Positions 19,274-59,291 of a DNA stretch of 64,000 nt are shown here, piece after piece. The first letter of the stretch is position 1, and every line of letters begins with the position of its first letter. The translations under genes were made by a program, and so were the position numbers. A model generated the notes under the pieces. The model made no database searches and was not told the origin of the DNA. It was given only the letters and a program-made list of their open reading frames with translations. Source of the stretch: a virus; IMG/VR virus record IMGVR_UViG_3300044487_000013, positions 1 to 64,000 of that record. One strand, written 5' to 3'.

Positions 19274-19630
19274 CTATCCCATGAGCGCACGGTTCAAGTC
19301 GATCCGCTTACCCACCCGCACGGCCATCGAGGACCGGCTCTCGCGGATGACCGACTCCAGGTACTTCCACTGCCCGACCTTGTGAAACGCGTCCGGGTCC
19401 TCATGCACGAAGATGGCGTAGGGTGCCGCGGGGCCGCCCGCCACGATCAGCGTGTAAATGATCCGGCCCTCCCGGATCGGACCCACCACGTGGATGGACC
19501 CGCGCAACGGACCGTACTTCACCGGGGTCCGTCGCTTGACCTCCGTTGCCTCGACCTGCGTCTCCTGGTAGAGGGCGCGCGCTATCTCATCCGGGAAGCG
19601 CTGAGCCAGTCGCTTCAGCTTTTCCCGCAT
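19274..19630 (-). CDS. HK97 gp10-like head-tail joining protein
   Basis: RTPVKYGPLRGSIHV-type motif. Start chosen at the internal Met with an AAGGG SD. The upstream ORF extension looks artefactual. Confidence 0.5.
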   Translation of the reverse strand: MREKLKRLAQRFPDEIARALYQETQVEATEVKRRTPVKYGPLRGSIHVVGPIREGRIIYTLIVAGGPAAPYAIFVHEDPDAFHKVGQWKYLESVIRESRSSMAVRVGKRIDLNRALMG

Positions 19631-22934: not shown

Positions 22935-23488
22935 ATGCCTATGCCGCCCCAGTGGTGGCCTCCACTGATCTCAAGCCACGTGCCCGGAACGGTTTCGACC
23001 TTGATCTCGTTCCAGAACTGCGGCACCCCAGTCTGCTTCGCGTCGATATCATGCGTAGCCGTGATGGCATCCGGGGTGAGGAACCAACGGTACGCATCCC
23101 AGTCTTCCCGCTTGCCCTTGTAGGAGTCGTCGCCATCGAGGAACAGCAGGTCGGCCCGGCGGCCTGCGAGGGCCACGGCCACGAGTCCCTGCGTCTCCAG
23201 AGCGTGCGAGTCTCCGAGGATGCAGCGGATCCGGCCGCCGAACTCCTTCTCCAGGATCTTGTTGCGAACCTGGCAGGCAGCGAGGCTCAGCCCGGTCGCG
23301 TCGCCGGAGGCCGGCATGTCGACGGTCACCAGGAACGCATCGGGGAACAGCCGTCCGAGGTGCTGGATGAACCCGCCGGGGCCGGTACCGATCTCCAGGA
23401 TCGTCTGCGGGTCGCAGGCCGCCTTCAGGTAGCGGTCGAACTCCGCCACCTCCTCCGGCCACTGCAGCATCTTCAGGTCGTGAGGCAT
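22928..23488 (-). CDS. class I SAM-dependent methyltransferase
   Basis: Motif I ILEIGTGPGGF. Start at the Met with a GAGG SD (MPHDLKM). Confidence 0.7.
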   Translation of the reverse strand: MPHDLKMLQWPEEVAEFDRYLKAACDPQTILEIGTGPGGFIQHLGRLFPDAFLVTVDMPASGDATGLSLAACQVRNKILEKEFGGRIRCILGDSHALETQGLVAVALAGRRADLLFLDGDDSYKGKREDWDAYRWFLTPDAITATHDIDAKQTGVPQFWNEIKVETVPGTWLEISGGHHWGGIGIW

Positions 23489-24525
23489 AGGACCTCGTCG
23501 CAAATGAAGTGAGCGTCGTCCTCAGTGAGGCCGGGGTGCGTCGGCAGGCTGAAGCCGCGCGTACCGATCTCGGTGGCAGTCGGGAACTCCCCGCTGTTGA
23601 ACTCCGGCATGGTGTGCAGCGGGACGAAGGTCGGCCGCGTCTCGATGCCGCGGCTGCCCAGGGCGCCCATCACCATATCCCGGTTGACATGCCGCGGCAC
23701 CAGGGCCGTGAACAACCAGGGCGATACACGCGCGCCCGCGCGTGGGTGCTGGCGCGAGAGGTGGAAGAGGCGCCGCTTGTAGACCGCGATGACCTTCTCG
23801 CGGGCCGCCCACATCTCGTCCAGACGCGCCAGCTGCGCGACCCCGAGGGCCGCCTGCAGGTCAGTCATCCGGTAATTGAAGCCGAGTTCCGTATGGTAAT
23901 AGCGGCGCACCGGATGCTGGGCCATGCCCCGCAGCGACCGCAGCCGCATCGCGTACTTCGGATTGTTCGTCACCACCGCTCCGCCCTCGCCAGTCGTGAT
24001 CAGCTTGTTGCCGTAGAAGCTGAAGCAGGACATGTCGCCCAGGCAGATGGGCTGGCTGTAGAGCGCCTCGGCGGCATCCTCGATAATCGCCACGCGGTCG
24101 TTAAGGCCAGTGAAGTCGTCGGTCGGCACGCCGTAGAGATGCACCGGGATGATGGCGCGCGTGCGCCGCGTGATGGTTCGCTTCGTTGCGTCTATATCGA
24201 GGCCCCACGTGTCCGGATTGACGTCGACCAGAACGGGGCGGGCGCCGGTATACATCACCGCGTAGGCCGTCGCCACGTAGGTCAGGTCGGGCACGATCAC
24301 CTCGTCGCCAGGGCCGACGCCGAGGGCGGCGAGCGCCAGGTGCAAGGCCGTCGTCCCGCTGGACGTCGCGACCGCGAACTTCTGCTCGTGCGTGTACGCG
24401 AGGATCTTCTCGAACCGCTCGACCATCGGGCCGCTCGTGATCTGCCCGCTGTTGAAGACGTCGAGGAGAAGTTTTCGTTCGTAGGAGGAAAGATCTGGCC
24501 GGCTAACCTGGTACTTGTACGTCAT
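23473..24525 (-). CDS. DegT/DnrJ/EryC1/StrS-family PLP-dependent sugar aminotransferase
   Basis: SFYGNK PLP-lysine motif. Overall family pattern (ArnB/WecE/PglE-like). Confidence 0.9.
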   Translation of the reverse strand: MTYKYQVSRPDLSSYERKLLLDVFNSGQITSGPMVERFEKILAYTHEQKFAVATSSGTTALHLALAALGVGPGDEVIVPDLTYVATAYAVMYTGARPVLVDVNPDTWGLDIDATKRTITRRTRAIIPVHLYGVPTDDFTGLNDRVAIIEDAAEALYSQPICLGDMSCFSFYGNKLITTGEGGAVVTNNPKYAMRLRSLRGMAQHPVRRYYHTELGFNYRMTDLQAALGVAQLARLDEMWAAREKVIAVYKRRLFHLSRQHPRAGARVSPWLFTALVPRHVNRDMVMGALGSRGIETRPTFVPLHTMPEFNSGEFPTATEIGTRGFSLPTHPGLTEDDAHFICDEVLCLTT

Positions 24526-25930: not shown

Positions 25931-26995
25931 CTAGCCGTTGAGGTGGCAGATCCCGCTCTTCCCCGAGGCCGTCGCGCGGATCAGCGGAGCGCCGATCGAG
26001 AAGACCTTGAAGTTGAGCTTGAACCCGCCGGCCTCGTCCCACTGCACGTTCTGGATCTGCTCGCCCTGGATCCAGGCCGCGACGTCGGGCGACGCCTGCA
26101 TGACGATCAGGTTGCCCGAGGGCAGCTGGTCGGCCACGCCAATCCGCTGCACACTCGACACCTGCGAGATGCGCCCACGGATCGACTGGATGTTCGCGGT
26201 CGCCGCGTTGTAATCGTTGTCGATGATCACACCCGCGTCGGTCGGCATGTACACCCAGTAGGGTCCGAAGAACTTGTTCGCCTGGAGCGCCGTGATGGCC
26301 GCGAGCAGGTCCTTCAGGTACGAAGAGCCGGCCTTCGTGCTGTCACCCCAGTCCTTGCCGCCGTCGAACGACACGGTCGTGACGCGGTTCGGATGCGTGG
26401 TGTAGCCGTAGATCGGCAGGCCGCCGAAGGTCGGTCCACCCTGGAACAGCATCTTCTCCAGCTGCTCGCTGACGACGCGCGCCGCGGTCTGAGCCTGGAT
26501 GGTGTCCAGGGTCTCGCCGCTCAGCCGCGCCGCGGCCAGCTTCCGGAGGTTGATGAAGTAGTCCTTGTGGGTGATCGGCAAGGGCAGCTGGTTCAGGTTG
26601 AACTCCTGAACGTCGTTGTCCGTCTGGCCGAGGCCGTCGAGCGACGTGATGGCCGCGTCCATGTCGGTCACCTGCTCGTAGCCGAACACCGTCTTCGCGA
26701 GGGCATTCGGAACGTTGCGGGTGAAGCCGGCCGAGATCAGGTCCTTGACGCCGACGAGGCGCATGACCGTCTCGCGGACCACCGCGTCATCGAAGTACTT
26801 CCACTCTTCGTGACGCAGCGTGTCGAGCGTGCGGAGGGCCGCGGTCGTCAGACCCTTGCCTTCCGTCATCGCCTTGTACAGCTGCTGGGTCGCCCAACGA
26901 CCGCTGTTCCCGTTGAACAACACGGTCGGGCTGGTGATGATGCTGGAAGCCGCGGGCGCCGATGCCACGCGACCCCGAGAAGTACGCTTCGCCAT
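25931..26995 (-). CDS. major capsid protein
   Basis: 354 aa. Downstream of the decoration-like and protease-scaffold genes. Lambda E-like order. Confidence 0.7.
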   Translation of the reverse strand: MAKRTSRGRVASAPAASSIITSPTVLFNGNSGRWATQQLYKAMTEGKGLTTAALRTLDTLRHEEWKYFDDAVVRETVMRLVGVKDLISAGFTRNVPNALAKTVFGYEQVTDMDAAITSLDGLGQTDNDVQEFNLNQLPLPITHKDYFINLRKLAAARLSGETLDTIQAQTAARVVSEQLEKMLFQGGPTFGGLPIYGYTTHPNRVTTVSFDGGKDWGDSTKAGSSYLKDLLAAITALQANKFFGPYWVYMPTDAGVIIDNDYNAATANIQSIRGRISQVSSVQRIGVADQLPSGNLIVMQASPDVAAWIQGEQIQNVQWDEAGGFKLNFKVFSIGAPLIRATASGKSGICHLNG

Positions 26996-37320: not shown

Positions 37321-39548
37321 TAGAACGGCAGGTCCTTGGGCGGCCCATCGGACTCGTTGGACCCTTTTTCCTCATCCGCCTGCCATTCGCCCTTGGACCC
37401 TACCAGCGTATCGAACAGCACGCGCGCCTCATCGATCGGCAACAGCGCTCGCACCCACTTGCCTTCGCGTCGCTTCCGGTCCGCGGACGTGCCCAGCCAA
37501 GGCGTGATGACCTTGCGTAGTTGGTCCGTGCCGATACGCCGATTGATCTTCATCGACTCGCACCACCGGAGGTAGTCGTCGTGGAGTTCCTGCTCGTACG
37601 TGAAGTCCGGCCACCCGCCATCGTCGCCCAGGTTCGCGTAGAGCAACTTCTCGTGCCACCACCGCATCTCCGTGGACAGCGACATTTCCTGTTGATTACG
37701 CAATTCCTCTGTGCGTGGCACTCGGCGTACCATCTCACGATCGGCCGGCATCGCCCACAGCAAACTGAGCAACGCTTGACAGCCCTCCGCACCTGTGCGC
37801 GGGTCCTTCATCATCTGCTTGTTCACCGCTTCGAAGTACGCGTAGTCCTGGAGATGCGCGTCGCTGACCCGCAGCGTGAGGAACCGACGTTCCTTCAGGC
37901 CGGCCTGGTGCGCCCAGTCCTCGTTGGTCGCCATGAACAGGTGCATGAAGTTAGGCTCCTCGATCACGTCGATGCCCTTGCGTTCGATGGCGAGCGTTGG
38001 CTCGGTGATGAGGCGCTTGAGCGACCCCAGGCTGGCCTTGTCGCCTGCGAAGAACGCCTCGTCCGCGAACACGACGACCTTGCCGGAGAGGGCCGCGTTG
38101 AACTTGCCGGCCAGCTGCTCCGTGCGGTCCAGCTGAATGAAGTGCCGACCGAACAGCCCTCGCCCGAAGATACGCACGAACGTACCCTTGCCGGCGCCCT
38201 GCGTGCCCTTCATCACCACGGCCACCTCGCTGGGCGTGCCCGGCTGCTGCACGGTCACCGCCATCAGGTTCAGGAGGTAATCGTAGTACTCCTGGTTGCC
38301 GGCGCAGATGATGTCCTTCACAAGGTCGAGGAAGAGTTGGCATTTGGGAGGACATTCAGCCATCACCCACGCCTTGAGCGTCACCTCGGAGGTGAGCGCC
38401 GCGTGCCCTGGCGGAGGCAGCAGCGGTTCGACCGCGTAGCCCTTCCAGAGGTTGTAGTCGACCTCCGGGCACTTGGCCGGCGGAGGCGCGAAGGTGATCT
38501 TCCTGAACGTCCGCTTATTTGGGTGCTCACGCCAGATCTCGAACTTGGTCTTGTACGTTTGCTCGCCCTTGTTCTCGCCGCGCGTCTTGGTCCCTACGGC
38601 CACCTTCTGGTGCGCGAACTCTTCGAACAGGGCGCGGGCCGGCTGCAGGACGACCTGCTCTTCCTCTTCCAGGCCATACACGTAGTCCTTGCCGACGCGG
38701 GCGCCGAAGCGGAACTCGTTCATCTCCGAGACGACCTTGTCGTAGACGGCCGTGTTGCCGCCCCACCACTGAACCAGGCGCTCGACTACATCCTTGCCGA
38801 TGCACTCGCCCAGGCTCGGGCCGCCGGTCGTCTTGCCGCCATCCAGGAACTCGTGGACGCTGGTGCTGTTGGCCTTCAGCCGGTCATCGACCTCGTCGTC
38901 CTTGGCAATCGCGCAGATGGCGCGTTGAATGTTCTGAATAGTGCCCAGGTCGACGTCGCGCGCTGCGAGGAACCCGCCGAGATGCAACGCGGAGTCATGC
39001 CGGCTGCCCTTGCCGCCCCAATGACGTCCGATCATCGTCGCGGTCGCGAGGTTGCGGCCGGTCTTTTCAGCGACCACCCGCTCCATCTGCTCCGCCTTGC
39101 CACGTTCCTTCCACGCCAGCTGCTCGCCAGTCGTGTGGATGGAGGGCGGCAACATCGTCTGGCCGCCCGTGGACCTTATTTCCAGCATCTTCTTACCGTC
39201 GGTATCGAGCCAGAACTTTGACTCGGTGCCCGGTGAGATGTAGAAGTAATGCGCGGTCCCGGTGCCAGGCCGGCCATGCGAACGGCCAGTGGGCGGCAGC
39301 AGGAAGTGCCCCGCGATGATGGCCTCGGGGCAATCGAGATCGAAGTCGATGAGATCACCGGATGGCTGGCCCAGCTTGACGCCTACGTTGGCGTCGGCGG
39401 AGAAGTGCTCCAGCGCATAGGTGCGCGTGGTCCACTTGGGTTCGTCCTTGCCGTCCATGCCGGGCTTCTTCGTGCCTGGCAGGAGCGGGACGACTGCCCA
39501 GCCCTCATCGATCAGCTGCTTCACTTCTAATCGTACGTCGCCGGCCAT
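37320..39548 (-). CDS. bifunctional primase-polymerase (prim-pol) / D5-like SF3 helicase
   Basis: N-terminal GWAVVPLLPGTKKP prim-pol motif. Walker A VVMKGTQGAGKGTF. 742 aa. Confidence 0.8.
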   Translation of the reverse strand: MAGDVRLEVKQLIDEGWAVVPLLPGTKKPGMDGKDEPKWTTRTYALEHFSADANVGVKLGQPSGDLIDFDLDCPEAIIAGHFLLPPTGRSHGRPGTGTAHYFYISPGTESKFWLDTDGKKMLEIRSTGGQTMLPPSIHTTGEQLAWKERGKAEQMERVVAEKTGRNLATATMIGRHWGGKGSRHDSALHLGGFLAARDVDLGTIQNIQRAICAIAKDDEVDDRLKANSTSVHEFLDGGKTTGGPSLGECIGKDVVERLVQWWGGNTAVYDKVVSEMNEFRFGARVGKDYVYGLEEEEQVVLQPARALFEEFAHQKVAVGTKTRGENKGEQTYKTKFEIWREHPNKRTFRKITFAPPPAKCPEVDYNLWKGYAVEPLLPPPGHAALTSEVTLKAWVMAECPPKCQLFLDLVKDIICAGNQEYYDYLLNLMAVTVQQPGTPSEVAVVMKGTQGAGKGTFVRIFGRGLFGRHFIQLDRTEQLAGKFNAALSGKVVVFADEAFFAGDKASLGSLKRLITEPTLAIERKGIDVIEEPNFMHLFMATNEDWAHQAGLKERRFLTLRVSDAHLQDYAYFEAVNKQMMKDPRTGAEGCQALLSLLWAMPADREMVRRVPRTEELRNQQEMSLSTEMRWWHEKLLYANLGDDGGWPDFTYEQELHDDYLRWCESMKINRRIGTDQLRKVITPWLGTSADRKRREGKWVRALLPIDEARVLFDTLVGSKGEWQADEEKGSNESDGPPKDLPF

Positions 39549-47192: not shown

Positions 47193-47774
47193 TCACACCT
47201 TGTTGTTGGGTTTGTACCCGAACGCAGTATGACCACCAGCATGCAAGAGCGGCACCTTGCTCCAGACCAGCCATTCGGTGGTGGCCGAGTCGCTGTGACC
47301 GTCGCCCGTAAAGCTGTAGCGTTCCAAGGCAATCTGCAGCTGCCGCGGGTGCATCCTGAGCCATCCGCCCCGCGGGTACTGCCCAGTCTTGGTGCCCTCC
47401 ACGAAGGACAGTCGAGACATGAGGACTGACCCCTTCTGCGCGTACACGAACGCGTGTTGGGCGATCGGAAGTTCGAGAGAGAACGGCGGGTTATCAATCA
47501 CCCAGTCCGGCATATGGCCACACGCCAGGAACATGTCGAGCCAGGTCTGGATCTTGGTGGCGTCGCCGTAGTGGTCCGCGACGCGATGAGTGTCCAGGTC
47601 GTTCGTGAAGAACGCGAGGCCAGGGACGCGTTCCCGCAGCTGCCTCACGATGGAGCCGTCGCCCACGGTTGGGCACCAGACCAAGTCGCCCGCCTTCATC
47701 TCCGGCAGGTGGTCGACCAGTGCGTCCACCTGCCAGGGCGCGGTCTCGTAAAATTCAAACGGTCGCTTCGACAT
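47193..47774 (-). CDS. DNA methyltransferase (N6-adenine/N4-cytosine type, DNPPF motif)
   Basis: Motif IV WVIDNPPF. 193 aa. Confidence 0.7.
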   Translation of the reverse strand: MSKRPFEFYETAPWQVDALVDHLPEMKAGDLVWCPTVGDGSIVRQLRERVPGLAFFTNDLDTHRVADHYGDATKIQTWLDMFLACGHMPDWVIDNPPFSLELPIAQHAFVYAQKGSVLMSRLSFVEGTKTGQYPRGGWLRMHPRQLQIALERYSFTGDGHSDSATTEWLVWSKVPLLHAGGHTAFGYKPNNKV

Positions 47775-48837
47775 GATGCTTCACCACGGTGGCCGGTTCA
47801 CCACCGACCTCCTTGAGGGCTGCGTTGACGCGGGCGACCGCAATCTCGAAGTAGTCCGGCTCGCGTTCGATGCCGACGTAGTGCCGCCCTTCGAGGACCG
47901 CGGCGATGCCTTCGGTGCCGGACCCCATAAACGGGTCGAGCACCAGGTGCCCCGGCCGCGTCATCAGGGTGGTGAGCCGGCGCATCAGGCTGATCGGCTT
48001 GACGGTCGGGTGGATGTTGTAGGCCTCGACGTTGTTGGCGCCCTTGAACCCGAACGACGTCTCCTTTTTGCGGAGCGGCAGGTCGGTGGCGCCCCAGTCG
48101 CGGTCCTTGGGGTTCGGCTTCGCACAGTAAAAGCACGGCTTCGCGTCGCGGATGAGACGCGCCAGGTCCGGGTCCTCAGCACCCAACTCGTCGTTGATGA
48201 TGATGTCGGTGGGGTGCTTGCCGGCATCCTCCACCTTCCACTGCTGGCCGTTCAGCTGGCCGCGGCCCTTCTCCTTGAATAGCTTACCCAGGTCGGCTAG
48301 GTTCCCCATCTCGCCGAGATACCGGCCGATGAGGAACGGCTCGAACGCGGCGCGCGGGTCGTTGACGTTGGTGACCTGGCTGGTCGAGTACATCCAGGCC
48401 ATGGGCCGGACCATCTGCAGGCCCGAGAGCCGGATGCCGCGGGCGAGCAGGTCCATCGTCTTCGACGCTGCGAACGCACCCACGTGGGCGCCGGGCCACA
48501 GGCGCTCCATCGCGGCGCGGATCCAGTCGCGGGAAAACTCCGCGAACTTCTCGGAGTCGTCGGCGGCCGTGGCCAGGGCGCGGCCATCTTCGAACGTGTC
48601 CCAGTCCTTGTCGCCCGCGAAGTCGAAGCCGTACGGCGGGTCGCACACGATCGCGTCGGCTTTGCCAATTTTGCCGGCGGTTGGCCGCAGGGCGCCGATG
48701 GTCGGGTCGCGGAGGACCTGCAGGGAGTCCCCGAGGATCAGGGTCACGATGGGCGTAGGCGGCATGGTTGCTCCTTCTGTAATTCGGTGGCGGAAAACGT
48801 TGTCGTTCAATTCACGGGGTGTCGTTGTTCCAAACAC
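47755..48837 (-). CDS. DNA methyltransferase (N6_N4_Mtase family)
   Basis: Motif IV IVCDPPYG and motif I VLDPFMGSGT. The alternative start MPPTP would end the gene at 48765. Confidence 0.85.
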   Translation of the reverse strand: MFGTTTPRELNDNVFRHRITEGATMPPTPIVTLILGDSLQVLRDPTIGALRPTAGKIGKADAIVCDPPYGFDFAGDKDWDTFEDGRALATAADDSEKFAEFSRDWIRAAMERLWPGAHVGAFAASKTMDLLARGIRLSGLQMVRPMAWMYSTSQVTNVNDPRAAFEPFLIGRYLGEMGNLADLGKLFKEKGRGQLNGQQWKVEDAGKHPTDIIINDELGAEDPDLARLIRDAKPCFYCAKPNPKDRDWGATDLPLRKKETSFGFKGANNVEAYNIHPTVKPISLMRRLTTLMTRPGHLVLDPFMGSGTEGIAAVLEGRHYVGIEREPDYFEIAVARVNAALKEVGGEPATVVKHHVEATV

Positions 48838-50963: not shown

Positions 50964-52604
50964 TCACTCTTCCGAAAGCTTCTGTCGCCAGGTGGCGGCA
51001 GTCCACGTTGCAATATCCTCCTTGCCGCGTAGCGCCGCGAGGATATGGTGGTCGATCGTGCGCTCGCCCTTCGGGCCGACCGCGACGACGTCGACGTACC
51101 GGATCGGGTTCTTTTGCCCAGGCCGGTCGATGCGCCCTCGGGCCTGCAGGTACGCGCGCAGGTTGAAGTCGTGGCTCAGGTTGACGGCCATCGATGCGCC
51201 CGAAAGGTTCAACGCGGCTCCGCCGGCCTGCGGGCTGCCCACGACGACCACCGGATGATCGACCACCACGTCCGGGTTCAACGCCCGCACGGCCGCTTGC
51301 CGGTCCTGCGGCGATTGGCCGCCGTAGAGCAGGTGGCTCGTGTAGCCGACCTCCTCGCCCAGCACCCGGCCGGCGCGTTCAATCTCGGCGCGGAACCGTC
51401 CCCACACCAGCAGGCGATTCGGCTTCTCGACGGTCCCCAGCCAGGTGATGAGTGCGTCCAGCTTGGACCGGCCTATCTCCTTCAGCATGGTGGTGGGCGC
51501 GTCAATCAGCCGTTCGCCGGCCGTCATGCCGGTACCGAAGTCCAGCTTGCCTTCCTCCAGGTCGATGCGCTCGACACCGCCCAGGAACCCGCCGGTGATC
51601 TGCGCCAAGCGGAGGGCTTTGACGAACGCCTGTCGGGCGACGCTGGCCAGGTCCAGGCCATCGTCGGTACCCAGCCAAGCCACCATGTCCTTCTTCATCG
51701 CTCGATAGATCCGCCATTCGTCGTCGTTCAGCCGCGCCTCGACCAGCACCGGGTCGAGCACCGGCGGCAGGTCGAAGCACTCGCGGGTCTCGCGCCGGAG
51801 AATGTACGGCTCACACTTGGCGCGCAGTTCCTCCAGCCGCGGCCACCTGGTCTCGACTGGAAAGTTCTTCCACATCTGCTCTTGCTTGATGGCGTCTCGC
51901 TTATTCGTGCAGGGCGCCAGGCCCGCGTAGTAGTGCATGAACCGCGACTCGGCCGTCGACACCACCCGCTTGCCGCGTGCGTTGACGTACGGGAACCCGA
52001 GGATATTCTCGTCCAGCATCCGCATCTGAGCGTTCAGGTCGAGCGGCGAGTCCGCGATCGGCGTGCCGTTCAGCAGCGTGACTCGGCGGGCCATCTTGCG
52101 GATCTCGTAGCACGCCTTCCACTGCTCGGTGCCCTGGTCCTTGAGTGCCCACGCCTCGTCGCACACCAGCCAGAAGCGCCAGCGGGACAGGAACGACAGC
52201 AGCGGGACCAGCCGGTCCTCGCGCCGTACGAACTCGTAGTTCGACACCACCCACCGGAGGCCCATCCCTTCCGGACTCTTCGGGAACGCGCCCGGCTTGG
52301 CCGTGCGGACCGAGTACTCCATCAGGTGGTTCATCATCGACGGCCAGCCGTGCTTCGACACCTCCCCGAGGGCCGGATCCGGGTCGGCCCACACGCCACG
52401 TGCCGCGGCGGGACAGACCACCATCATCAGGTCGATCTCGGTGCCCTGGTAGAGGATCTGCGCGGTGTCAACGATCTGCTTGCTCTTGCCGGCGCCGACC
52501 TGGTCAGCCAGCATCGCGGCTGGATGTTTTAAGAGCCAGGTGACCCCGAACTTCTGGTGGTCGCGCGGCTTCGTCGCGCAATGCGTCCAATTGATCTCCA
52601 ACAT
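50964..52604 (-). CDS. SNF2-family DEAD/DEAH-box helicase
   Basis: QVGAGKSKQ Walker A. DEAW box LVCDEAWALKD. Helicase C region. Confidence 0.85.
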   Translation of the reverse strand: MLEINWTHCATKPRDHQKFGVTWLLKHPAAMLADQVGAGKSKQIVDTAQILYQGTEIDLMMVVCPAAARGVWADPDPALGEVSKHGWPSMMNHLMEYSVRTAKPGAFPKSPEGMGLRWVVSNYEFVRREDRLVPLLSFLSRWRFWLVCDEAWALKDQGTEQWKACYEIRKMARRVTLLNGTPIADSPLDLNAQMRMLDENILGFPYVNARGKRVVSTAESRFMHYYAGLAPCTNKRDAIKQEQMWKNFPVETRWPRLEELRAKCEPYILRRETRECFDLPPVLDPVLVEARLNDDEWRIYRAMKKDMVAWLGTDDGLDLASVARQAFVKALRLAQITGGFLGGVERIDLEEGKLDFGTGMTAGERLIDAPTTMLKEIGRSKLDALITWLGTVEKPNRLLVWGRFRAEIERAGRVLGEEVGYTSHLLYGGQSPQDRQAAVRALNPDVVVDHPVVVVGSPQAGGAALNLSGASMAVNLSHDFNLRAYLQARGRIDRPGQKNPIRYVDVVAVGPKGERTIDHHILAALRGKEDIATWTAATWRQKLSEE

Positions 52605-52759: not shown

Positions 52760-52861
52760 TTAGGCATCGTACTTGGACCGTGGGAAGAAGGTGAGGCCCA
52801 TCAGGACCATGATGCCGACGTAGGCGGTCACGCCGATGAGGAACTGAACGTCTGCGCTCAT
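52760..52861 (-). CDS. candidate 33-aa hydrophobic peptide
   Basis: CAAGGAGACAGC-ATG SD. ATGA overlap with the exonuclease stop. MSADVQFLIGVTAYVGIMVLMGLTFF. Confidence 0.35.
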   Translation of the reverse strand: MSADVQFLIGVTAYVGIMVLMGLTFFPRSKYDA

Positions 52862-53802
52862 GCTGTCTCCTTGACTGGGAAGTTTCCTTTGAGTGCCTCG
52901 CCGCAGACCTTCTTGACGTCTTGGCTGAAGCCGGTGGACTCCTCAGCAATCCACTTCAGGTCCCGCCGGGTCATCATCTTCAGCTTGGTGCCGTTCCACT
53001 TCTTATTGGTGAACACCACCTCGCCGTCGCGCCACACCAGGACACCCTTGGCGTCGATGGCGTTGGGGTCCCGTGGCCAGCACCACTCGTGCAGGTCCTT
53101 CAGGTTGCGCGGCACCTTCGGGTACCGTTCCATCTGCGCCATGACCACCTCCAGGGAGGCGACCACGTCGTCAATCGAACCGTGGGCACCTTCGTGCTTG
53201 CGCCCGAGGAACGTCTCGACCGCGTCGCTCAGGGTGCGGCCTTGGACCTTTTGCCAGAGGCGATAGCCGTCGATGGCGAACGCCTTGTCGTAGGACCAGG
53301 GATGGCCGGCGCGGGTGAACGCAGCGGCCATGAGCGGCAGGTCGTAGCGGTAGATATTGAACCCGCCGAAGTCTGCGTTGCTGAAGCCACGATGCAGGTT
53401 CTCCGCTAGGTCCTGGAAGGTGGGGTAGGGCGCGAACTCGTGGACGTCAGGCGATTGCGCCGCGTCCATGAGCATAGTTGTATGGTCACCCCGCGGCCCG
53501 CCGCACAGTCTGCAACCCTCCACCTTCGTGTTGGTGATGCCGTGGCCAGGATACCCGCCATCTTCCTCGGCGCCCGGCTTCCCGAAGGTGGCCTCGTGCG
53601 GTATGGTGCAGAGCGGATTGACGTAGGATTGCCACTGCTTGAACGAGTGATCCGGTCTGACCATGACGAAGCCCAGGTCCACGATGCGCGCGGACGACGG
53701 GTCTTGTCCGGTGGTTTCGGTGTCGAAGAAGATTACCGGCCGCTCGATGGTCACCAGGCTGATGAACCGGAGCGCCAAGTCGCGTAGCTTGTCGAGGTTC
53801 AT
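52858..53802 (-). CDS. DEDDh 3'-5' exonuclease (DnaQ-like)
   Basis: Exo I motif IFFDTETTG. Exo III motif HGSIDDVVA. Confidence 0.8.
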   Translation of the reverse strand: MNLDKLRDLALRFISLVTIERPVIFFDTETTGQDPSSARIVDLGFVMVRPDHSFKQWQSYVNPLCTIPHEATFGKPGAEEDGGYPGHGITNTKVEGCRLCGGPRGDHTTMLMDAAQSPDVHEFAPYPTFQDLAENLHRGFSNADFGGFNIYRYDLPLMAAAFTRAGHPWSYDKAFAIDGYRLWQKVQGRTLSDAVETFLGRKHEGAHGSIDDVVASLEVVMAQMERYPKVPRNLKDLHEWCWPRDPNAIDAKGVLVWRDGEVVFTNKKWNGTKLKMMTRRDLKWIAEESTGFSQDVKKVCGEALKGNFPVKETA

Positions 53803-54026
53803 ACCGTCTCCGTCAGGTCGTGAAGGATATCGTCGCGCAGCTTCCACAACGCAGTCCGCTCCGCGATCGTGAGCGAACGCCCCGCGACGTATGGGTCGAA
53901 GTTGTTCTTGATGATGGCGCGGACGCGCGCCAGCACTTGGTCTGGTGAATGTACCGGACAGAAGGTCTTGGCGTCAACGCCCGTTATCGCTGGGCACAGT
54001 GGAAACGCGCACGGCTTCTGGTTCAT
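53799..54026 (-). CDS. hypothetical protein
   Basis: 75 aa. ATGA overlap. Confidence 0.45.
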   Translation of the reverse strand: MNQKPCAFPLCPAITGVDAKTFCPVHSPDQVLARVRAIIKNNFDPYVAGRSLTIAERTALWKLRDDILHDLTETV

Positions 54027-55015: not shown

Positions 55016-55621
55016 TTAGGTGATCGACTGAAATTCGCGGGTACGGACCTGGAACCCCGTAAGGTCCTTTCCGGCCAGCTTGTTTTCCGCCGCGTAGTCG
55101 ACCAGCGTCGACTCCTTCGCCGCCTGAGCGTTCTTCGCGACGACCAGCTTCGCGGCCTGCGCGATGCCATAGATCTCGCCCTGCTCGTTCACGTACACGA
55201 CGATCGTTTCGAAGACCTTCATACCATCCTCCAGTGTGAGAAGTAGTTCGTCCACGTTGCATCGGCACATAGGGTGCCACGGTAGGTCGTTCATCTGCGC
55301 GAGGTAGAGCGCCGCGTCCTGCTTCGCACGTTCCTCTGCGGCCAGGTCCCGCTGCGGTTCCATTGGCCGCATGATGATCTCGTAGAGTCGACGGTCAGTC
55401 AGGTCCGCGCACAAGGGTGCCTTCACCTCCAGGACCAGGCCATAGTGGCCGCCGATGGTATCCGGCTCGCCCGCGAAGAAGGCCGCCTTCGCTCGCTCGA
55501 ACTCGTCCTCGTACTGCGTCACGTAGGTGACTACCTGACGCCTGCGAGCGTACTGCGCCTGCTCCAGAGCGTCGTAGTACCGCTCGGCATCCTCGTGGCT
55601 CATGTACGAGTTATTTGGCAT
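55016..55621 (-). CDS. hypothetical protein (N-terminal part of a possible split gene)
   Basis: Start MPNNSYMSHEDAERYY. 201 aa. Confidence 0.5.
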   Translation of the reverse strand: MPNNSYMSHEDAERYYDALEQAQYARRRQVVTYVTQYEDEFERAKAAFFAGEPDTIGGHYGLVLEVKAPLCADLTDRRLYEIIMRPMEPQRDLAAEERAKQDAALYLAQMNDLPWHPMCRCNVDELLLTLEDGMKVFETIVVYVNEQGEIYGIAQAAKLVVAKNAQAAKESTLVDYAAENKLAGKDLTGFQVRTREFQSIT

Positions 55622-57842
55622 CGGCCCAGGTCCTTCCAACTCCGACCTCCCACAAGATGGGAACGCGGAACTCCAGGTACTGCGTGTTCAGCGCTTCCTT
55701 CAGCTTCATTGGGTCACCATGCAGATCTCCTGCCAGAGCGTCATGCACGGTAAACCGCTCGATCAGACCCAACTCGTGACGCCTTTTGTGGATCTCGACC
55801 AGGGTCACTTTGATGTCATCGGCCTCGGTACCCTGGATGACACCGTTGAGCGCCGAGTAGAAACGGTCGCCTACGCCGAACCGACGACGTCGCCCGAGGA
55901 ACGTTTTTACGTAGCCGCGATGCGGATAACCCGCATCGTAGTACTTTCGGCAGGCGCCACCGCACGAGTCCGCGCCGAATGAACCCTCTCGCTGGAAGGA
56001 CGCGCGATGGCCGGGCATCGAGAGGTGCGCGGCCAGCTTGAGCAGTGGTTTCACGGACGGAAACATCGTGTGGTACGTCTCCGATAGCTGCACCACCTCT
56101 TGGAACTTCGGCCCGCCGACCCGATGGGTGCTCTTGCTCTTTGTCGCGTCCAGCCATTCGTCGTAGGACGGGATCTGGTCCTCCGGCACACCAAGCTGGC
56201 GAGCCATCTTCGGGATCCCGGCGCCGAACACCTGGGCGAAGTTCACGTTCTTGACGTGGGTGCGGATCAGGTCGCGACCTGCATGTTCGAAAATGAGTCG
56301 GCCCACGACTCCGTGGTAGTCCGTCAGCTTGTCATCAGCCGTGAGCGGCAAGCCGGCCAGCCGCTTGGCCTCGGCCCGCGCCTCGATCTCGCGCCATCCC
56401 CAGTCGCGTTTGTACGCCTCGATGATGCGTGGGTCGTTTCCATAGTGGGCGAAGATGCGGAACTGCAGCGAGTTGGCGTCCGCGTTGACGTACTTGGCTG
56501 ACGGGTCCGCGGTCTTGAACAGTTTCTTCACGATGTACTTGCGGGTGAAGGGCCGGTTCTTCTTCTGGCTCTCCACCCCGAACACCTGCTGGATGTTCGC
56601 GCCATCGTCGCGGAACGGTGCGGCCGAGGAGAAACGGCCCGAGACCGCTCCGCCGTGGCCCTCAGCATCATCCTGGTAGGGCATCTGGTGTAGTTCGTAG
56701 CGGAGGATGCCGTCCCGCGACGTCGATCGCTGATACTTCAGGAGGAACTTGGACCGCAGGCTCTCCAGCTGGAGGCCGGCGCTCATCGCCTGGACCCAAC
56801 GGTTCTGGATGGGTTTCAGCAGAGCGACCGCGAACGAGTAGTTCGGCTCGCCAGTCTCCGGATGGTAGGGCTGCTCCTCATCGAGCGGCGGGTCGATATG
56901 CAGGCGGCTGAACAGCTGCAAGGCCGCCTTGCGGTTGGTGAACTTCTCGAACTCGACCCCGGTCGCCTTCCGAATGGCGTGCCGCAGGTTGTCCAGGTCG
57001 CGGGCGCTCGCGTTGACCCAGCGGTTCAGCAGTTCGACGTCGATGGGCGCTCCGTTATGCTCCATCTCTACGACGACCGGGATGACCGCGTCCTCGACCG
57101 CGCGCACGGTGTGCAGGTCCTGCTCGGTCAGCTGCGGCCACATAGCGGCCTGGAGCAGATGCACGATCCGGACGTCGCCCTCGGCGCGGGGCGCCACTAG
57201 GCCTGCTGGGTACTCCGCGAACTTGCTGGGGTCCAGGTCATAGCCGCCTGCCGCGCGCACCTTGGCTTCCTCTGGCGTGATGATGCCCGGCTGGACCAGG
57301 AACGCGTTCGCCAGGTCCTCCTGGTTGAACCGGATCCGGTGGTCGTCCAGCAATGCCGCATAGTGAGCAACGTCCCCGAAGGTGCAGCCTTGCGCTTCGA
57401 GATCCAGCCCATCGGCACGGAACATATGCAGGTCGAACTTGGTGCGGATGTTGACGATCCGCTTGCCGCGCAGTTCCCTTCGCGCCCATTCGAAGAACCT
57501 CTCCTCCGGGATGTTCACCCCGATCTTGTGGCGGATAGGCAGGTACCGCGAGCGGCCGTCCGGGGTCCAGATGCCGGCGCCGATCATGCGGTCACCGGCC
57601 CACCACTTGAGGCCGGTGGTTTCCAGGTCGATGATGATCTCGTCCATGCCGGCGAGCGACGGCAGGTCCGGCGGCTGCCAGTCCTTGACGCTGTCGAGCA
57701 TCGCCTGGTACGTGCGTCGGTCGCCTGCGTACCGCGCCTCCTGGCGCAGCAGGTCGACCCCGGCACGGTGGCGCGACATGGCGTCGGCGGCCCGCTGATC
57801 TTCCTCCGCGGAATGTGCCTTGGAGTATTCGAAGAGGTTCAT
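55611..57842 (-). CDS. family A DNA polymerase with 3'-5' exonuclease domain
   Basis: Exo motif IIIDLETTGL. Pol motif A DANSLQFRIFAHY, motif B NVNFAQVFGAG, motif C FTVHDA. Confidence 0.9.
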   Translation of the reverse strand: MNLFEYSKAHSAEEDQRAADAMSRHRAGVDLLRQEARYAGDRRTYQAMLDSVKDWQPPDLPSLAGMDEIIIDLETTGLKWWAGDRMIGAGIWTPDGRSRYLPIRHKIGVNIPEERFFEWARRELRGKRIVNIRTKFDLHMFRADGLDLEAQGCTFGDVAHYAALLDDHRIRFNQEDLANAFLVQPGIITPEEAKVRAAGGYDLDPSKFAEYPAGLVAPRAEGDVRIVHLLQAAMWPQLTEQDLHTVRAVEDAVIPVVVEMEHNGAPIDVELLNRWVNASARDLDNLRHAIRKATGVEFEKFTNRKAALQLFSRLHIDPPLDEEQPYHPETGEPNYSFAVALLKPIQNRWVQAMSAGLQLESLRSKFLLKYQRSTSRDGILRYELHQMPYQDDAEGHGGAVSGRFSSAAPFRDDGANIQQVFGVESQKKNRPFTRKYIVKKLFKTADPSAKYVNADANSLQFRIFAHYGNDPRIIEAYKRDWGWREIEARAEAKRLAGLPLTADDKLTDYHGVVGRLIFEHAGRDLIRTHVKNVNFAQVFGAGIPKMARQLGVPEDQIPSYDEWLDATKSKSTHRVGGPKFQEVVQLSETYHTMFPSVKPLLKLAAHLSMPGHRASFQREGSFGADSCGGACRKYYDAGYPHRGYVKTFLGRRRRFGVGDRFYSALNGVIQGTEADDIKVTLVEIHKRRHELGLIERFTVHDALAGDLHGDPMKLKEALNTQYLEFRVPILWEVGVGRTWADAK

Positions 57843-58273
57843 TCGGCCTCAAGTGGCAGCGTGATGCCCAGGCCGTCACCCTGGGCATTACCCACGCGGC
57901 TTGCTATGCGGACACGTCGTTTGCGTTTCGGGTTCAGGTGGTTCTCATAGCTGATATGGTGCGAGCGGCACAGAGCCTCGTGGTTCTTTGGCGCGTTGTT
58001 AGTGTCGTCGCCGTCCTTGTGATGAATGTCGGCAGGGTCGCCACATTTGATGCAGAGAGGTTCCGCCCCACCGTGTCGTTCAATCCAGATGTTGCGCGCC
58101 CGCTCGTGCTTCGCGGACTCACTCATGCCAACAGGACGCTTCGAATTGACCGCGTGCGTACTGCAGCTATGCGAGCAGAACTTTGCCTCGCCGCGGTTGA
58201 CGTACTTGATCTCCGCGAAGAAGATGCGCCCGCATGGCGCCCAGTGACATGTACGTTCAACCATTGTCGGCAT
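57839..58273 (-). CDS. HNH endonuclease
   Basis: CIKCGDPADIHHKDGDDTNNAPKNHEALCRSHH. Confidence 0.65.
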   Translation of the reverse strand: MPTMVERTCHWAPCGRIFFAEIKYVNRGEAKFCSHSCSTHAVNSKRPVGMSESAKHERARNIWIERHGGAEPLCIKCGDPADIHHKDGDDTNNAPKNHEALCRSHHISYENHLNPKRKRRVRIASRVGNAQGDGLGITLPLEAE

Positions 58274-58282
58274 AAAGGGTAT

Positions 58283-58615
58283 TGGAGACGGTGGGAGTCG
58301 AACCCACGTCCGAACGAATGTTCCCGCGTCCATCTACGTGCATAGCCCGGTGCCGCCGGGCACGGTCTTGAACGACGCTGCGGTTTTCTTACTTGCCCGT
58401 CCCTGATCCGCAGCCAAACAGGATCGTGGGCCATAGCCGATTAATGACGTGGATGACGGCTTATCGGCATCAGCCGGTCCACGGACGGCTGCCTTAAGCA
58501 GCCATCGGGAGTGCAACAGGTTCCGCAATTAAGGGATCTGCCAGCGGATTAACGAGTCACTGGTGCTCGGCACGCAGACCCGGTTCAACGCGCTCGTCGA
58601 AGCCGTGTCGTCCCC
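58283..58615 (-). ncRNA. ssrA: tmRNA (ssrA), complete
   Basis: 5' GGGGACGACACGGCUUCGACG pairs with 3' ...GGACGUGGGUUCGACUCCCACCGUCUCCA, giving a G3-U wobble acceptor. Internal ORF ends GCUGCUUAA. Confidence 0.7.
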
Positions 58616-58757
58616 AAATGGTGGCCAGCCGCCCCTGGCCGGGTGTTTCGCGGCATCACGGCAACCTCGTACGTTGACGGATGGGAGAGGTGCCAGCAGC
58701 TGGAGCGGACCGCATGCGCCGGTTCCATGTCGCTGGCGTCCCGCCTTAGCGGGAAGA

Positions 58758-59291
58758 TCAAAGTCGTGGCAATTCGTCGCGAGTGAAATCGTACACGATC
58801 GTCGCGTACGGCGCCAGCAGTTCGAACGCCTTGTACGCTTGGTGCAAAAACCCTTCCGTCTGATACGACGGCCGTTCGCGACCTTCCTTGGTCACGTTGT
58901 TCAGAGTGACCGAGAACGGTGGCAGACACAAGATCACCGGCACCTTGTGATGACGGAGCAACCGAGTCAGCATCTCCAATTCACCGTCGTGGATTTCGAC
59001 GCGGTCGGGCCGAAGGATCGGCGCGTACGCGACCTCCGACAGGTGAAAGCGGTCGAACGCGATCGGTGCGGCCTTGGTCCAGACCGCCTGGGCTGAGCGC
59101 TCCTCGAACCGCGCCTCCATGACCTTGCGCGTGTACGCGAGCATGGCTGGTTCGTCGCCGCCCCAGCCCTTCGGGTTCGCGCCCTCAGACCCGAGGCCCT
59201 GGCGTAGAGCCTTCAGCTGCCTGCGCTGGTACCCGAGGCGTTGGATGGTCGTGGTCTTGCCGGAACCGTCCGGCCCTTCAACGATGATCAT
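58758..59291 (-). CDS. thymidylate (dNMP) kinase
   Basis: P-loop IIVEGPDGSGKTT. Confidence 0.65.
   Translation of the reverse strand: MIIVEGPDGSGKTTTIQRLGYQRRQLKALRQGLGSEGANPKGWGGDEPAMLAYTRKVMEARFEERSAQAVWTKAAPIAFDRFHLSEVAYAPILRPDRVEIHDGELEMLTRLLRHHKVPVILCLPPFSVTLNNVTKEGRERPSYQTEGFLHQAYKAFELLAPYATIVYDFTRDELPRL

What the first reader, a model, noticed from the sequence alone, without database searches (positions are those of the whole stretch)
58283..58615. Complete tmRNA (ssrA) gene inside the phage replication module, abutting an HNH endonuclease gene
On the minus strand, the 5' end GGGGACGACACGGCUUCGACGAGCG pairs with the 3' end CGUCUCCA to give the canonical 7-bp acceptor stem with a G3-U wobble (alanine identity). 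The UUCGACG element, a T-arm GUGGGUUCGACUCCCAC, and a 3' region close to E. coli ssrA (UUCGGACGUGGGUUCGACUCCCACCGUCUCCA against UUCGGACGCGGGUUCAACUCCCGCCAGCUCCA) are all present. An internal frame ends GCU GCU UAA (…AA stop). The predicted tag AEPVALPMAA is unusual: it lacks the usual ANDxxYALAA pattern. The gene lies between phage genes on both sides (HNH endonuclease, dTMP kinase), so it appears to be phage-encoded rather than host flank. Phage-borne tmRNAs are rare and could rescue stalled ribosomes during infection or retarget tagging.
Basis: seen in the sequence. Interest (0 to 1): 0.7.

Follow-up and report, generated by a model that had tools for sequence, protein, structure and literature searches.

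The report
Phage-encoded tmRNA gene, conserved in relatives
A previously unsequenced tailed phage carries its own complete ribosome-rescue RNA (tmRNA) next to its DNA polymerase gene; related phages keep it too, so it is a real working gene, but phage tmRNAs are a known if uncommon thing.

Summary
ARAGORN and Rfam RF00023 (134.8 bits, gathering score 47, full-length match) both call a one-piece tmRNA at 58283-58615 (-), tag AEPVALPMAA. The window is phage throughout (portal, terminase, capsid, lambda-like tail, primase-polymerase, SNF2 helicase, PolA). The tmRNA lies between a thymidylate-kinase-like gene and an HNH gene that starts 9 nt after its discriminator base. It is not an integration junction: no repeat of its 3' end, no integrase found, phage genes on both sides. 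Eight further metagenomic relatives (PolA 56-92% identical) carry a tmRNA 0.07-1.3 kb upstream of PolA. The copies are only 47-72% identical, yet they keep the acceptor stem with G3:U, T-arm, helix 2, PK1 and PK2 through compensatory changes (covariation 0.356 against 0.141 in shuffles, 0/500). The 9-11 codon tag frame stays open through synonymous changes. Seven tags follow A-E-P-x-x-L-x-(R/M/Q)-A-A; two deviate. The gene is dispensable: one relative keeps only a 39-nt remnant, and basal lineages lack it. No SmpB is encoded, so host SmpB is needed. About 2% of sequenced phages carry tmRNAs, so this is a new member of a known kind. Host and in vivo role are unresolved.

The parts
58283..58615 (-). 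One-piece tmRNA (ssrA) gene, 333 nt, ending at discriminator A; no encoded CCA
   Evidence: ARAGORN. Rfam RF00023 at 134.8 bits, full model. Structural covariation across relatives.
58609..58615 (-). Acceptor stem 5' strand GGGGACG. It pairs with 58284-58290 (CGUCUCC). G3:U is the alanine identity pair. The discriminator A is at 58283.
   Evidence: all 7 pairs form in all eight ARAGORN-called copies. helix 1: 100% paired, 3 of 7 pairs with changes on both sides, G:U invariant.
58291..58307 (-). T-arm GUGGG-UUCGACU-CCCAC
   Evidence: helix 10: 100% paired, 3 of 5 pairs with changes on both sides.
58541..58569 (-). Pseudoknot PK1. Stem 1 is CGAG/CUCG and stem 2 is CCAGUG/CGCUGG. It ends 14 nt upstream of the resume codon.
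   Evidence: same H-type geometry (loops 2/1/6) in six copies. helices 5 and 6: 100% and 91% paired, with compensatory changes.
58494..58526 (-). Tag reading frame GCG GAA CCU GUU GCA CUC CCG AUG GCU GCU UAA, encoding (A)AEPVALPMAA. The resume codon GCG is preceded by UUAAUU.
   Evidence: In the eight ARAGORN-called copies the frame is open, length changes are whole codons only, and conserved residues persist through synonymous changes.
58484..58506 (-). Helix 5 hairpin. Its 5' strand is formed by the last tag codons, and its loop (UUAAG) holds the UAA stop.
   Evidence: Seven of the eight copies printed correctly show the stop in a hairpin loop (the L006 line was mis-anchored).
57839..58273 (-). 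HNH endonuclease gene (144 aa). It starts 9 nt after the tmRNA discriminator, and its stop overlaps the PolA start. It is a sporadic mobile cassette, not part of the tmRNA function.
   Evidence: phrog_1271 at E = 3e-9. Motif visible. A homologue is found only in L003, at the same junction.
55611..57842 (-). Family A DNA polymerase, the syntenic anchor downstream of the tmRNA in all relatives
   Evidence: PF00476 at E = 2.4e-21 and phrog_17 at E = 1.5e-53. Relatives.
58758..59291 (-). P-loop, thymidylate-kinase-like gene upstream of the tmRNA
   Evidence: phrog_761 at E = 1e-12; Pfam matches below threshold. Homologues next to the tmRNA or PolA in all relatives.

Best explanation
This is a functional one-piece tmRNA gene that belongs to the phage.

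Shown: it has every sequence and structure hallmark of tmRNA, it sits among phage replication genes on their strand, and it has been kept under selection for both RNA structure and tag coding in a clade of roughly 65-kb siphophages.

Inferred mechanism:
1. It is transcribed together with the replication genes. No promoter of its own was found, and in three relatives it starts within about 12 nt of the end of the preceding ORF.
2. Host RNase P cuts the 5' end, host exonucleases trim the 3' end, and the host CCA-adding enzyme completes it.
3. Host AlaRS charges it with alanine through the G3:U pair.
4. It binds host SmpB, because the phage encodes none.
5. It enters stalled ribosomes in the infected cell and switches translation to its own frame. 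This appends (A)AEPVALPMAA and releases the ribosome at UAA.

The likely benefit is extra ribosome-rescue capacity while host transcription is shut down and mRNA is being degraded. The tag keeps the terminal Ala-Ala, so tagged fragments are probably still sent to ClpXP-type proteolysis. The gene is accessory, since some relatives have lost it.
For: Identity.

Phage context: portal, terminase, capsid, primase-polymerase, SNF2 helicase and PolA; lambda-like tail genes, and no integrase among the listed families. The 3' end occurs only once in the window.

Conservation: a full-length RF00023 match lies upstream of PolA in L002, L003, L004, L005, L006, L007, L013 and L048. Pairwise tmRNA identity is only 47-72%.

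Structural selection: 26 of 66 RNAalifold pairs have changes on both sides. With the canonical structure, including PK1 and PK2, 83.9% of cells pair and 28 pairs have changes on both sides. The covariation score is 0.356 against 0.141 in shuffles (0 of 500 reach it) and at most 0.10 when partners are slid.

Coding selection: GCG-GAA is invariant; Pro, Leu, Ala and Arg are kept through synonymous codons; indels are whole codons only.

No SmpB: a control SmpB hits PF01668 at 1.5e-57, no window protein does, and tblastn finds nothing.

Single origin: tmRNA-bearing phages fall in one PolA clade. L049 keeps a 39-nt remnant at the syntenic site.

Literature: the terminal Ala-Ala is the main ClpXP determinant (PMC7652416). 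Similar roles have been proposed for other phage tmRNAs (PMC9004378, PMC7162821, PMC12656738).
Against: - No expression, processing, charging or tagging data exist; every step after transcription is inferred.
- No promoter was found, and the upstream spacers are not conserved.
- The gene is dispensable: L049 lost it, and L015 lacks it within 5 kb of PolA.
- The antepenultimate tag residue is R, M or Q in the eight ARAGORN-called copies (Ala in L048), not Leu. The SspB-type N-terminal motif is absent, so degradation efficiency in the unknown host is uncertain.
- The MFE z-score is only -1.6, as expected for a pseudoknotted RNA.
- The host is unknown, so no comparison with the host ssrA was possible.
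Confidence: 0.8

Rival explanations
1. The phage tmRNA mainly interferes with or re-routes host trans-translation rather than simply adding capacity. It would out-compete host tmRNA for SmpB and attach a lineage-specific tag (AEPxxLx[R/M/Q]AA). That tag would be a poor degron or would be read by a different adaptor or protease. The result could be to spare rescued phage proteins, or to blunt host defences that act by cleaving mRNA or tRNA.
For: The tag motif is conserved yet non-canonical: no AND...Y adaptor-type segment, and R, M or Q in place of the antepenultimate Leu. The phage depends on host SmpB, so competition with host tmRNA cannot be avoided. A TLD-only phage tmRNA (mycobacteriophage DS6A) is reported to inhibit endogenous tmRNA (PMC4131195, PMC11915505).
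Against: The terminal Ala-Ala, the dominant ClpXP determinant, is invariant (PMC7652416). Arg is tolerated or favoured upstream of Ala-Ala in an E. coli degron screen, though at a different position (PMC10862746). A pure inhibitor would not need a conserved tag frame, PK1 and a stop in helix 5. There are no functional data either way.
Confidence: 0.12
2. The gene is a captured bacterial ssrA that is now a neutral passenger or decaying pseudogene with no role in infection.
For: The gene is dispensable. L049 has only a 39-nt remnant. L015, L028 and the basal lineages lack it. L048 has a degenerate T-loop and scores only 73.5 bits. L005 lacks about 55 nt of the pseudoknot region.
Against: Across copies only 47-72% identical, the helices are kept by compensatory changes, well beyond both shuffled and slid controls. 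G3:U is invariant. The tag frame stays open, with synonymous substitutions and whole-codon indels. Neutral decay over this divergence would have destroyed these features.
Confidence: 0.05
3. It is the host's own ssrA at a prophage integration junction, or an attP-type tmRNA fragment, and not a phage gene.
For: tmRNA genes are common integration sites for temperate phages and genomic islands (PMC11915505, PMC9004378).
Against: The match covers the full model 1-374, not a 3' fragment. The 3' end is not repeated in 64 kb. Both sides carry phage genes (HNH and PolA on one side; kinase-like, phrog_8380 and phrog_4796 genes on the other). No integrase or SmpB was found. The same arrangement recurs in eight other phage contigs of up to 67 kb.
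Confidence: 0.02

Closest known systems
Bacterial one-piece tmRNA (SsrA, Rfam RF00023), e.g. E. coli ssrA
   Same: Full architecture: acceptor stem with G3:U, T-arm, long helix 2, PK1 just before a GCN resume codon, a short tag frame ending Ala-Ala with the stop in the helix 5 loop, then PK2.
   Different: It is encoded by a phage, with no adjacent smpB. The tag is AEPVALPMAA rather than ANDENYALAA. CCA is not encoded. The PK3/PK4 region matches the model poorly. There is no BLAST-level similarity to E. coli ssrA.
tmRNAs of isolate phages: Bxz1-like mycobacteriophages, Bacillus phage G, Stenotrophomonas myophage Marzo, huge phages (PMC4131195, PMC8928761, PMC7162821)
   Same: A complete tmRNA gene carried by a phage with no sign of lysogeny. 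The presumed role is to support translation during infection.
   Different: Where described, those carriers have large genomes (for example Marzo: 159 kb, 23 tRNAs; huge phages above 200 kb, some with SmpB). This window has no tRNA and no SmpB, and its relatives are about 65 kb. No nucleotide similarity to any tmRNA in 50,697 phage records.
tmRNA of virulent Bradyrhizobium elkanii siphophages (PMC12656738)
   Same: Mid-sized, high-GC siphophages that carry a tmRNA, no tRNAs and a family A polymerase. This is the closest match in lifestyle and gene content.
   Different: Those genomes average 62.9 kb and 67% GC, with Leu at the PolA 762 position. The window is at least 64 kb and 63.7% GC, with Phe at the equivalent position (F535; motif assignment from my own knowledge). 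Their sequences (PX020967-PX020982) were not available, so homology of the two tmRNAs is untested.
Two-piece (permuted) phage tmRNA of OM43 phage Melnitz and pelagimyophages (PMC9004378)
   Same: A phage-encoded complete tmRNA, found in some but not all members of a viral group.
   Different: Melnitz has a circularly permuted two-piece gene with a glutamine riboswitch. Here the gene is one-piece, and Rfam finds no other RNA family in the window.
TLD-only mini-tmRNA of mycobacteriophage DS6A (PMC4131195, PMC11915505)
   Same: A phage-borne derivative of tmRNA that must use host SmpB.
   Different: DS6A lacks the mRNA-like domain. Here the tag frame, PK1 and helix 5 are present and conserved.

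Membership tests
tmRNA, one-piece form (Rfam RF00023) | Covariance-model score above the curated gathering score over the full model | tested here: met
   134.8 bits against 47, model 1-374/374, E = 1.4e-52. ARAGORN agrees independently.
tmRNA, one-piece form (Rfam RF00023) | tRNA-like domain: 7-bp acceptor stem formed by the 5' and 3' ends, G3:U alanine identity pair, T-arm | tested here: met
   all pairs form in all eight ARAGORN-called copies; both helices 100% paired, with compensatory changes; G:U in 7 of 7.
tmRNA, one-piece form (Rfam RF00023) | Pseudoknot PK1 immediately upstream of the resume codon | tested here: met
   H-type pseudoknot, 4 + 6 bp, ending 14 nt before the resume codon, with the same geometry in six copies. 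One search, helices 5 and 6. For L007 and L013 the pseudoknot was read by eye only.
tmRNA, one-piece form (Rfam RF00023) | Short internal reading frame that starts at an Ala (GCN) resume codon with no start codon and ends at a stop in the helix 5 loop | tested here: met
   GCG resume codon, 10 codons, UAA in the UUAAG loop.
tmRNA, one-piece form (Rfam RF00023) | Tag ends in a hydrophobic, Ala-Ala type degron | tested here: met
   Ala-Ala is terminal in all nine copies. The commoner ...ALAA or ...LAA form is not present (M, R or Q in eight copies, Ala in L048). That form is typical, not defining.
tmRNA, one-piece form (Rfam RF00023) | Non-permuted gene order (acceptor 5' strand, then mRNA-like domain, then T-arm and acceptor 3' strand) | tested here: met
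   ARAGORN does not flag it as permuted.
tmRNA, one-piece form (Rfam RF00023) | Alanylation, SmpB binding and trans-translation activity | not testable with these tools
   Needs biochemistry or infected-cell RNA and proteomics.
Phage-encoded (not host or att-derived) tmRNA | Phage genes on both sides, and the same locus in independent related phage genomes | tested here: met
   for the flanks. Synteny upstream of PolA in eight other contigs.
Phage-encoded (not host or att-derived) tmRNA | No integration signature (duplicated 3' end, neighbouring integrase) | tested here: met
   The 3' 23-mer occurs once, even allowing 3 mismatches. No integrase appears among the listed Pfam families (7 weak families were not displayed).
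attP-type tmRNA fragment of temperate phages | Only the 3' portion of ssrA is present, next to an integrase | tested here: not met
   Full-length match; no integrase.
Two-piece (permuted) tmRNA | Circularly permuted gene: the 3' tRNA-like half precedes the mRNA-like half | tested here: not met
   Standard order.
TLD-only mini-tmRNA (DS6A type) | Lacks the tag frame and pseudoknots | tested here: not met
   Tag frame, PK1, helix 5 and PK2 are present.

The most novel reading that the evidence does not exclude
This clade evolved its own tag family (AEPxxLx[R/M/Q]AA), kept by selection. The tmRNA would then do more than add rescue capacity. It would take over host SmpB and give rescued polypeptides a phage-tuned fate, such as weaker or adaptor-independent proteolysis or a different protease. 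Alternatively it could counter abortive-infection systems that cleave mRNA or tRNA and stall ribosomes. Nine naturally diverged alleles and a natural deletion (L049) would make this directly testable.
Probability: 0.12. Interest if true: 0.7.

Novelty: new member of a known kind. Interest (0 to 1): 0.35.

Why it matters
What phage tmRNAs do has never been shown experimentally. Most known examples sit in very large phages, next to big tRNA sets, where their contribution is hard to isolate.

Here the tmRNA is the only translation-related gene found in a mid-sized (about 65 kb) siphophage. It has been kept under both structural and coding selection across a clade. It also comes with natural controls: relatives that never had it, one that deleted it, and alleles with different tags.

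If an isolate and its host can be obtained, that is a clean comparative and genetic system for asking whether a phage tmRNA boosts ribosome rescue, competes with the host tmRNA, or alters the fate of tagged proteins. As a discovery it extends a known phenomenon rather than revealing a new one.

Tried and rejected
- **Nucleotide searches.** The tmRNA and the 14-kb region found nothing in 50,697 phage records. The tmRNA found nothing in E. coli genomes even at E <= 10.
- **IMG/VR.** A single-sequence PolA scan and two tmRNA DNA patterns found nothing. The alignment-based scan found only tmRNA-negative relatives.
- **Host identification failed.**
  - The one genome-contig scan gave only distant PolA hits in Peribacteria and Myxococcaceae MAGs.
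  - Sample and accession strings are in no held paper.
  - A homologue search I meant for the DegT gene was run on the wrong ORF (6324-7457, a conserved hypothetical) and gave no taxon names.
- **Weak host hint only.** Head genes are about 36% identical to Brevundimonas phages StAshley and MaInes. StAshley has no tmRNA.
- **Bradyrhizobium elkanii phages.** Their accessions are not in the local collection, so that tmRNA could not be compared.
- **Alphaproteobacterial tag lead.** From memory, the L048 tag ANYNAPLQAAA resembles alphaproteobacterial tags such as ANDNFAPVAQAA. I could not verify this, so I do not rely on it.
- **Alignment problems.** MAFFT mis-registered the L004 5' end and the helix 5 and PK2 regions. 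The low pairing of helices 7 and 8 is therefore an alignment artefact, and per-sequence checks were used instead.
- **Tree support.** Bootstrap values for deep nodes of the NJ tree were unreliable; only the topology is used, with caution.
- **Promoters.** No sigma-70-like promoter was found upstream in the window or in L002.

Full report
**1. The observation**

ARAGORN finds exactly one tRNA-like gene in the 64-kb window. It is a tmRNA at 58283-58615 on the minus strand, with tag AEPVALPMAA. Rfam's RF00023 model matches 58280-58615 (-) at 134.8 bits against a gathering score of 47. The E-value is 1.4e-52, and the match covers the whole model without truncation.

- GGGGACG pairs with CGUCUCC over 7 bp, with G3:U, followed by discriminator A.
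- The T-arm is GUGGG/UUCGACU/CCCAC.
- The resume codon GCG is preceded by UUAAUU.
- The frame is GCG GAA CCU GUU GCA CUC CCG AUG GCU GCU UAA.
- The stop codon sits in the loop of a 9-bp hairpin (helix 5). The last tag codons form its 5' strand.

PK1 is present as an H-type pseudoknot (CGAG/CUCG and CCAGUG/CGCUGG) ending 14 nt before the resume codon. CCA is not encoded; AUA follows the discriminator. A plain MFE fold recovers the acceptor stem, T-arm, helix 5 and one PK2 stem. Its z-score is only -1.6, which is unremarkable for a pseudoknotted RNA.

**2. Context: a phage, not a junction**

The window is 63.7% GC, and its genes are tightly packed, almost all on the minus strand. The recognisable genes are:

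| Gene | Coordinates |
|---|---|
| HK97-type capsid protein | 25931-26995 |
| Portal | 32329-33867 |
| Large terminase | 34359-36647 |
| Primase-polymerase | 37320-39548 |
| DNA methylase | 47755-48837 |
| SNF2 helicase | 50964-52604 |
| RNase T-like exonuclease | 52858-53847 |
| Family A DNA polymerase (PolA) | 55611-57842 |

Lambda-like tail tube, tail terminator and tail chaperone genes are also present.

The tmRNA lies between two genes. Upstream is a P-loop gene resembling thymidylate kinase (58758-59291; phrog_761, with Pfam matches below threshold). Downstream is an HNH endonuclease gene (57839-58273; phrog_1271, motif visible). Genes further upstream also match phage families (phrog_8380 and phrog_4796).

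The 3' end of the tmRNA occurs only once in the window, even allowing three mismatches. No integrase and no SmpB were found. The SmpB test had a positive control: an E. coli SmpB sequence hit PF01668 at 1.5e-57, and none of the 53 window proteins scanned with it did. tblastn was also negative. The integration-junction and attP readings are therefore rejected.

**3. The phage is new; relatives exist only in recent metagenomes**

Nothing in 50,697 phage records matches at the nucleotide level. PolA is about 25% identical to that of any isolate. The portal and capsid proteins are about 36% identical to those of Brevundimonas phages StAshley and MaInes, and StAshley has no tmRNA.

A protein search found a family of PolA relatives on metagenomic contigs of up to 68 kb. 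I fetched their neighbourhoods (plus scans 67 and 83). L001 is the same phage as the window.

**4. The tmRNA is a conserved, syntenic but dispensable gene of one clade**

A full-length RF00023 match lies upstream of PolA on the same strand, 75 nt to about 1.3 kb away, in eight further phages:

| Locus | PolA identity to window | Tag |
|---|---|---|
| L002 | 92% | AERAPLQMAA |
| L003 | 72% | AEPEYLQRAA |
| L004 | 69% | AEPELRRAA |
| L013 | 70% | AEPELRQAA |
| L005 | 64% | AEPVTLQRAA |
| L006 | 59% | AEPVLARAA |
| L007 | 56% | AEPQYLQRAA |
| L048 | 56% | ANYNAPLQAAA |

 The L048 copy scores 73.5 bits. ARAGORN misses it because its T-loop is degenerate, so its tag was read by eye.

Rfam and ARAGORN find no tmRNA near PolA in L008, L014, L015, L016, L017, L018, L020, L028 or L049.

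In a PolA tree the carriers fall in one clade and the basal lineages lack the gene, with L015 a nested exception (deep support is unreliable). L049 (68% PolA identity) was not in that tree. It keeps a 39-nt remnant, with 31 of 39 bases identical to positions 265-303 of the L003 tmRNA. The remnant sits exactly between the kinase-like gene and PolA and scores above all 200 shuffles. That shows secondary loss by deletion.

The simplest history is one acquisition, then vertical inheritance, then occasional loss.

**5. Evidence that the gene is functional**

The nine copies are only 47-72% identical to each other, yet structure and coding are both preserved.
- RNAalifold finds 26 of 66 pairs with changes on both sides.
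- I imposed the canonical structure, with PK1 and PK2 written as pseudoknots, on seven copies. 83.9% of cells pair and 28 pairs have changes on both sides.
- The covariation score is 0.356. Column shuffles give 0.141 (0 of 500 reach the observed value), and sliding the partners gives at most 0.10.
- The acceptor stem, T-arm and PK1 stem 1 are 100% paired, and G3:U is invariant.
- In the eight ARAGORN-called copies the tag frame is always open and differs in length only by whole codons. It keeps GCG-GAA invariant.
- Those copies preserve Pro (CCU/CCC), Leu (CUC/CUU/UUG), Arg (CGC/CGU) and the terminal Ala-Ala (GCU/GCA/GCG and GCU/GCC) through synonymous changes.

These are signatures of selection on both the RNA fold and the encoded peptide. 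They argue against a decaying passenger gene.

**6. How it most likely works**

The shown parts are the anatomy, the context and the selection. The rest is inferred from established tmRNA biology.
1. **Transcription.** No sigma-70-type promoter lies upstream, and the upstream spacers are not conserved. In L004, L005 and L006 the tmRNA begins within about 12 nt of the end of the preceding ORF. Co-transcription with the replication genes, followed by RNase P processing, is the most plausible route.
2. **3' end.** Copies that do not encode CCA need the host CCA-adding enzyme.
3. **Charging.** Charging by host AlaRS follows from the G3:U pair.
4. **SmpB.** Dependence on host SmpB follows from the absence of a phage smpB.
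5. **Action.** The RNA would rescue stalled ribosomes, adding (A)AEPVALPMAA.

The terminal Ala-Ala carboxylate is the main ClpXP determinant, and the antepenultimate Leu contributes only modestly (PMC7652416). The tag is therefore probably still a degron, perhaps a weaker one and independent of an SspB-type adaptor.

The benefit is probably extra rescue capacity while host transcription is shut off and mRNAs are being degraded. The same role has been proposed for other phage tmRNAs (PMC9004378, PMC7162821, PMC12656738).

A competing possibility is that it chiefly competes with host tmRNA or changes the fate of tagged proteins. I cannot exclude this and put it at about 0.12.

**7. Comparison with what is known**

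Phage tmRNAs are established. One survey found them in 402 of 18,146 phage genomes, as 133 unique sequences (PMC9004378). Known carriers include Bxz1-like mycobacteriophages and Bacillus phage G (PMC4131195), huge phages, where some also carry SmpB (PMC7162821), and pelagimyophages with two-piece forms.

The closest in lifestyle are virulent B. elkanii siphophages, which have a tmRNA, no tRNA and a PolA (PMC12656738). They differ in size (62.9 kb), GC content (67%) and the PolA 762 residue (Leu there; Phe535 here).

This locus passes every testable defining feature of RF00023. It fails those of the attP-fragment, two-piece and TLD-only forms. It is a new member of a known kind.

What is modestly distinctive:
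- It is the only translation-related gene in a mid-sized phage.
- It has a conserved, lineage-specific tag motif.
- Natural presence and absence variants exist.

**8. Side finding: the HNH gene**

An HNH homologue (55% identical) exists only in L003, again directly after the tmRNA. In both phages the cassette begins right after the discriminator (UCCA|AUACCYUUUAUGCC). It replaces the encoded CCA and the roughly 75-nt spacer that L002 and L005 retain. In the window its stop codon overlaps the PolA start.

This sporadic, precisely bounded distribution fits a mobile homing-endonuclease cassette that targets the tmRNA 3' end or the PolA upstream site. It is not part of the tmRNA's function.

**9. 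Verdict**

The novelty is limited to a new lineage, and I score interest at about 0.35. The host, the expression of the gene and its in vivo role remain open.

Noticed in passing
window 57839-58282; L003:9364-9722: The HNH cassette is inserted exactly after the tmRNA discriminator base in two divergent phages (window and L003, 55% identical HNH). The junction AAUACCYUUUAUGCC is conserved. Both have lost the encoded CCA and the roughly 75-nt tmRNA-PolA spacer that L002 and L005 keep. In the window the HNH stop overlaps the PolA start (GAATGAAC). This looks like a homing endonuclease whose site is the tmRNA 3' end.
   Followed up: partly
L049:5849-5887: A 39-nt remnant of the tmRNA helix 2 3' strand lies between the kinase-like gene and PolA, in a relative that otherwise lacks a tmRNA. 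It matches L003 at 31 of 39 bases and beats all 200 shuffles. This is a natural deletion allele.
   Followed up: yes
L048:4434-4749: A divergent tmRNA scores 73.5 bits in Rfam but is missed by ARAGORN. Its T-loop is degenerate (GGCAGAU), and its tag, read by eye, is ANYNAPLQAAA. The tag links the clade motif (APLQ, as in L002) to the canonical 'AN...' start. From memory it resembles alphaproteobacterial tags; this is unverified.
   Followed up: partly
L005:9650-9926: A short tmRNA (277 nt) lacks about 55 nt of the PK3/PK4 region but still scores 117.9 bits, with an intact TLD, PK1 and tag. A natural minimal variant.
   Followed up: no
window 58283; L002, L004, L005, L006, L013, L048 3' ends: The encoded CCA is polymorphic within the clade. 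It is present in six copies and absent in the window, L003 and L007. The host must therefore have a CCA-adding enzyme.
   Followed up: partly
window 58621-58640; L002:1970-1995 (approximate): A GC-rich hairpin lies just 5' of the tmRNA in the window (GGCCAG...CUGGCC) and in L002 (CCCGCCAGG...CCUGGCGGG). It could be a terminator for the upstream genes or a processing signal. It is not conserved in the other relatives.
   Followed up: no
L006:9049-9531; L007:9509-9997 compared with window 58758-59291: The kinase-like gene lies upstream of the tmRNA in the window, L003, L004, L005 and L013, but downstream of it in L006 and L007. The tmRNA-PolA interval is a hot spot for small-gene insertion and rearrangement.
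   Followed up: partly
L002:1287-1810: The kinase-like gene of the closest relative gives two overlapping tblastn segments in different registers. This suggests a frameshift, either a pseudogene or an assembly error.
   Followed up: no
window 19587-24525: A sugar-modification cluster sits inside the virion module. It includes a DegT/DnrJ/EryC1 aminotransferase (23473-24525, Pfam E = 5e-97) and a group 1 glycosyltransferase (19587-20969). It may glycosylate the virion or modify a host surface sugar.
   Followed up: no
window 34359-36647: The large terminase is unusually long (762 aa). The Terminase_6N match covers only residues 353-569, leaving an N-terminal extension of about 350 residues with no annotation.
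   Followed up: no
window 55611-57842 (residue F535): Motif B of PolA reads K-N-V-N-F-A-Q-V-F-G. Phe sits at the position equivalent to E. coli Pol I 762, and it is invariant across 21 relatives. The B. elkanii tmRNA-bearing phages are reported to have Leu there. The position assignment comes from my own knowledge of motif B.
   Followed up: partly
L007:12896-12972; L003:9279-9363: L007 carries a real tRNA-Arg(TCT) downstream of PolA (Rfam 68.3 bits). The 'tRNA-Val' that ARAGORN reports in L003 is just the tRNA-like domain of its tmRNA.
   Followed up: no
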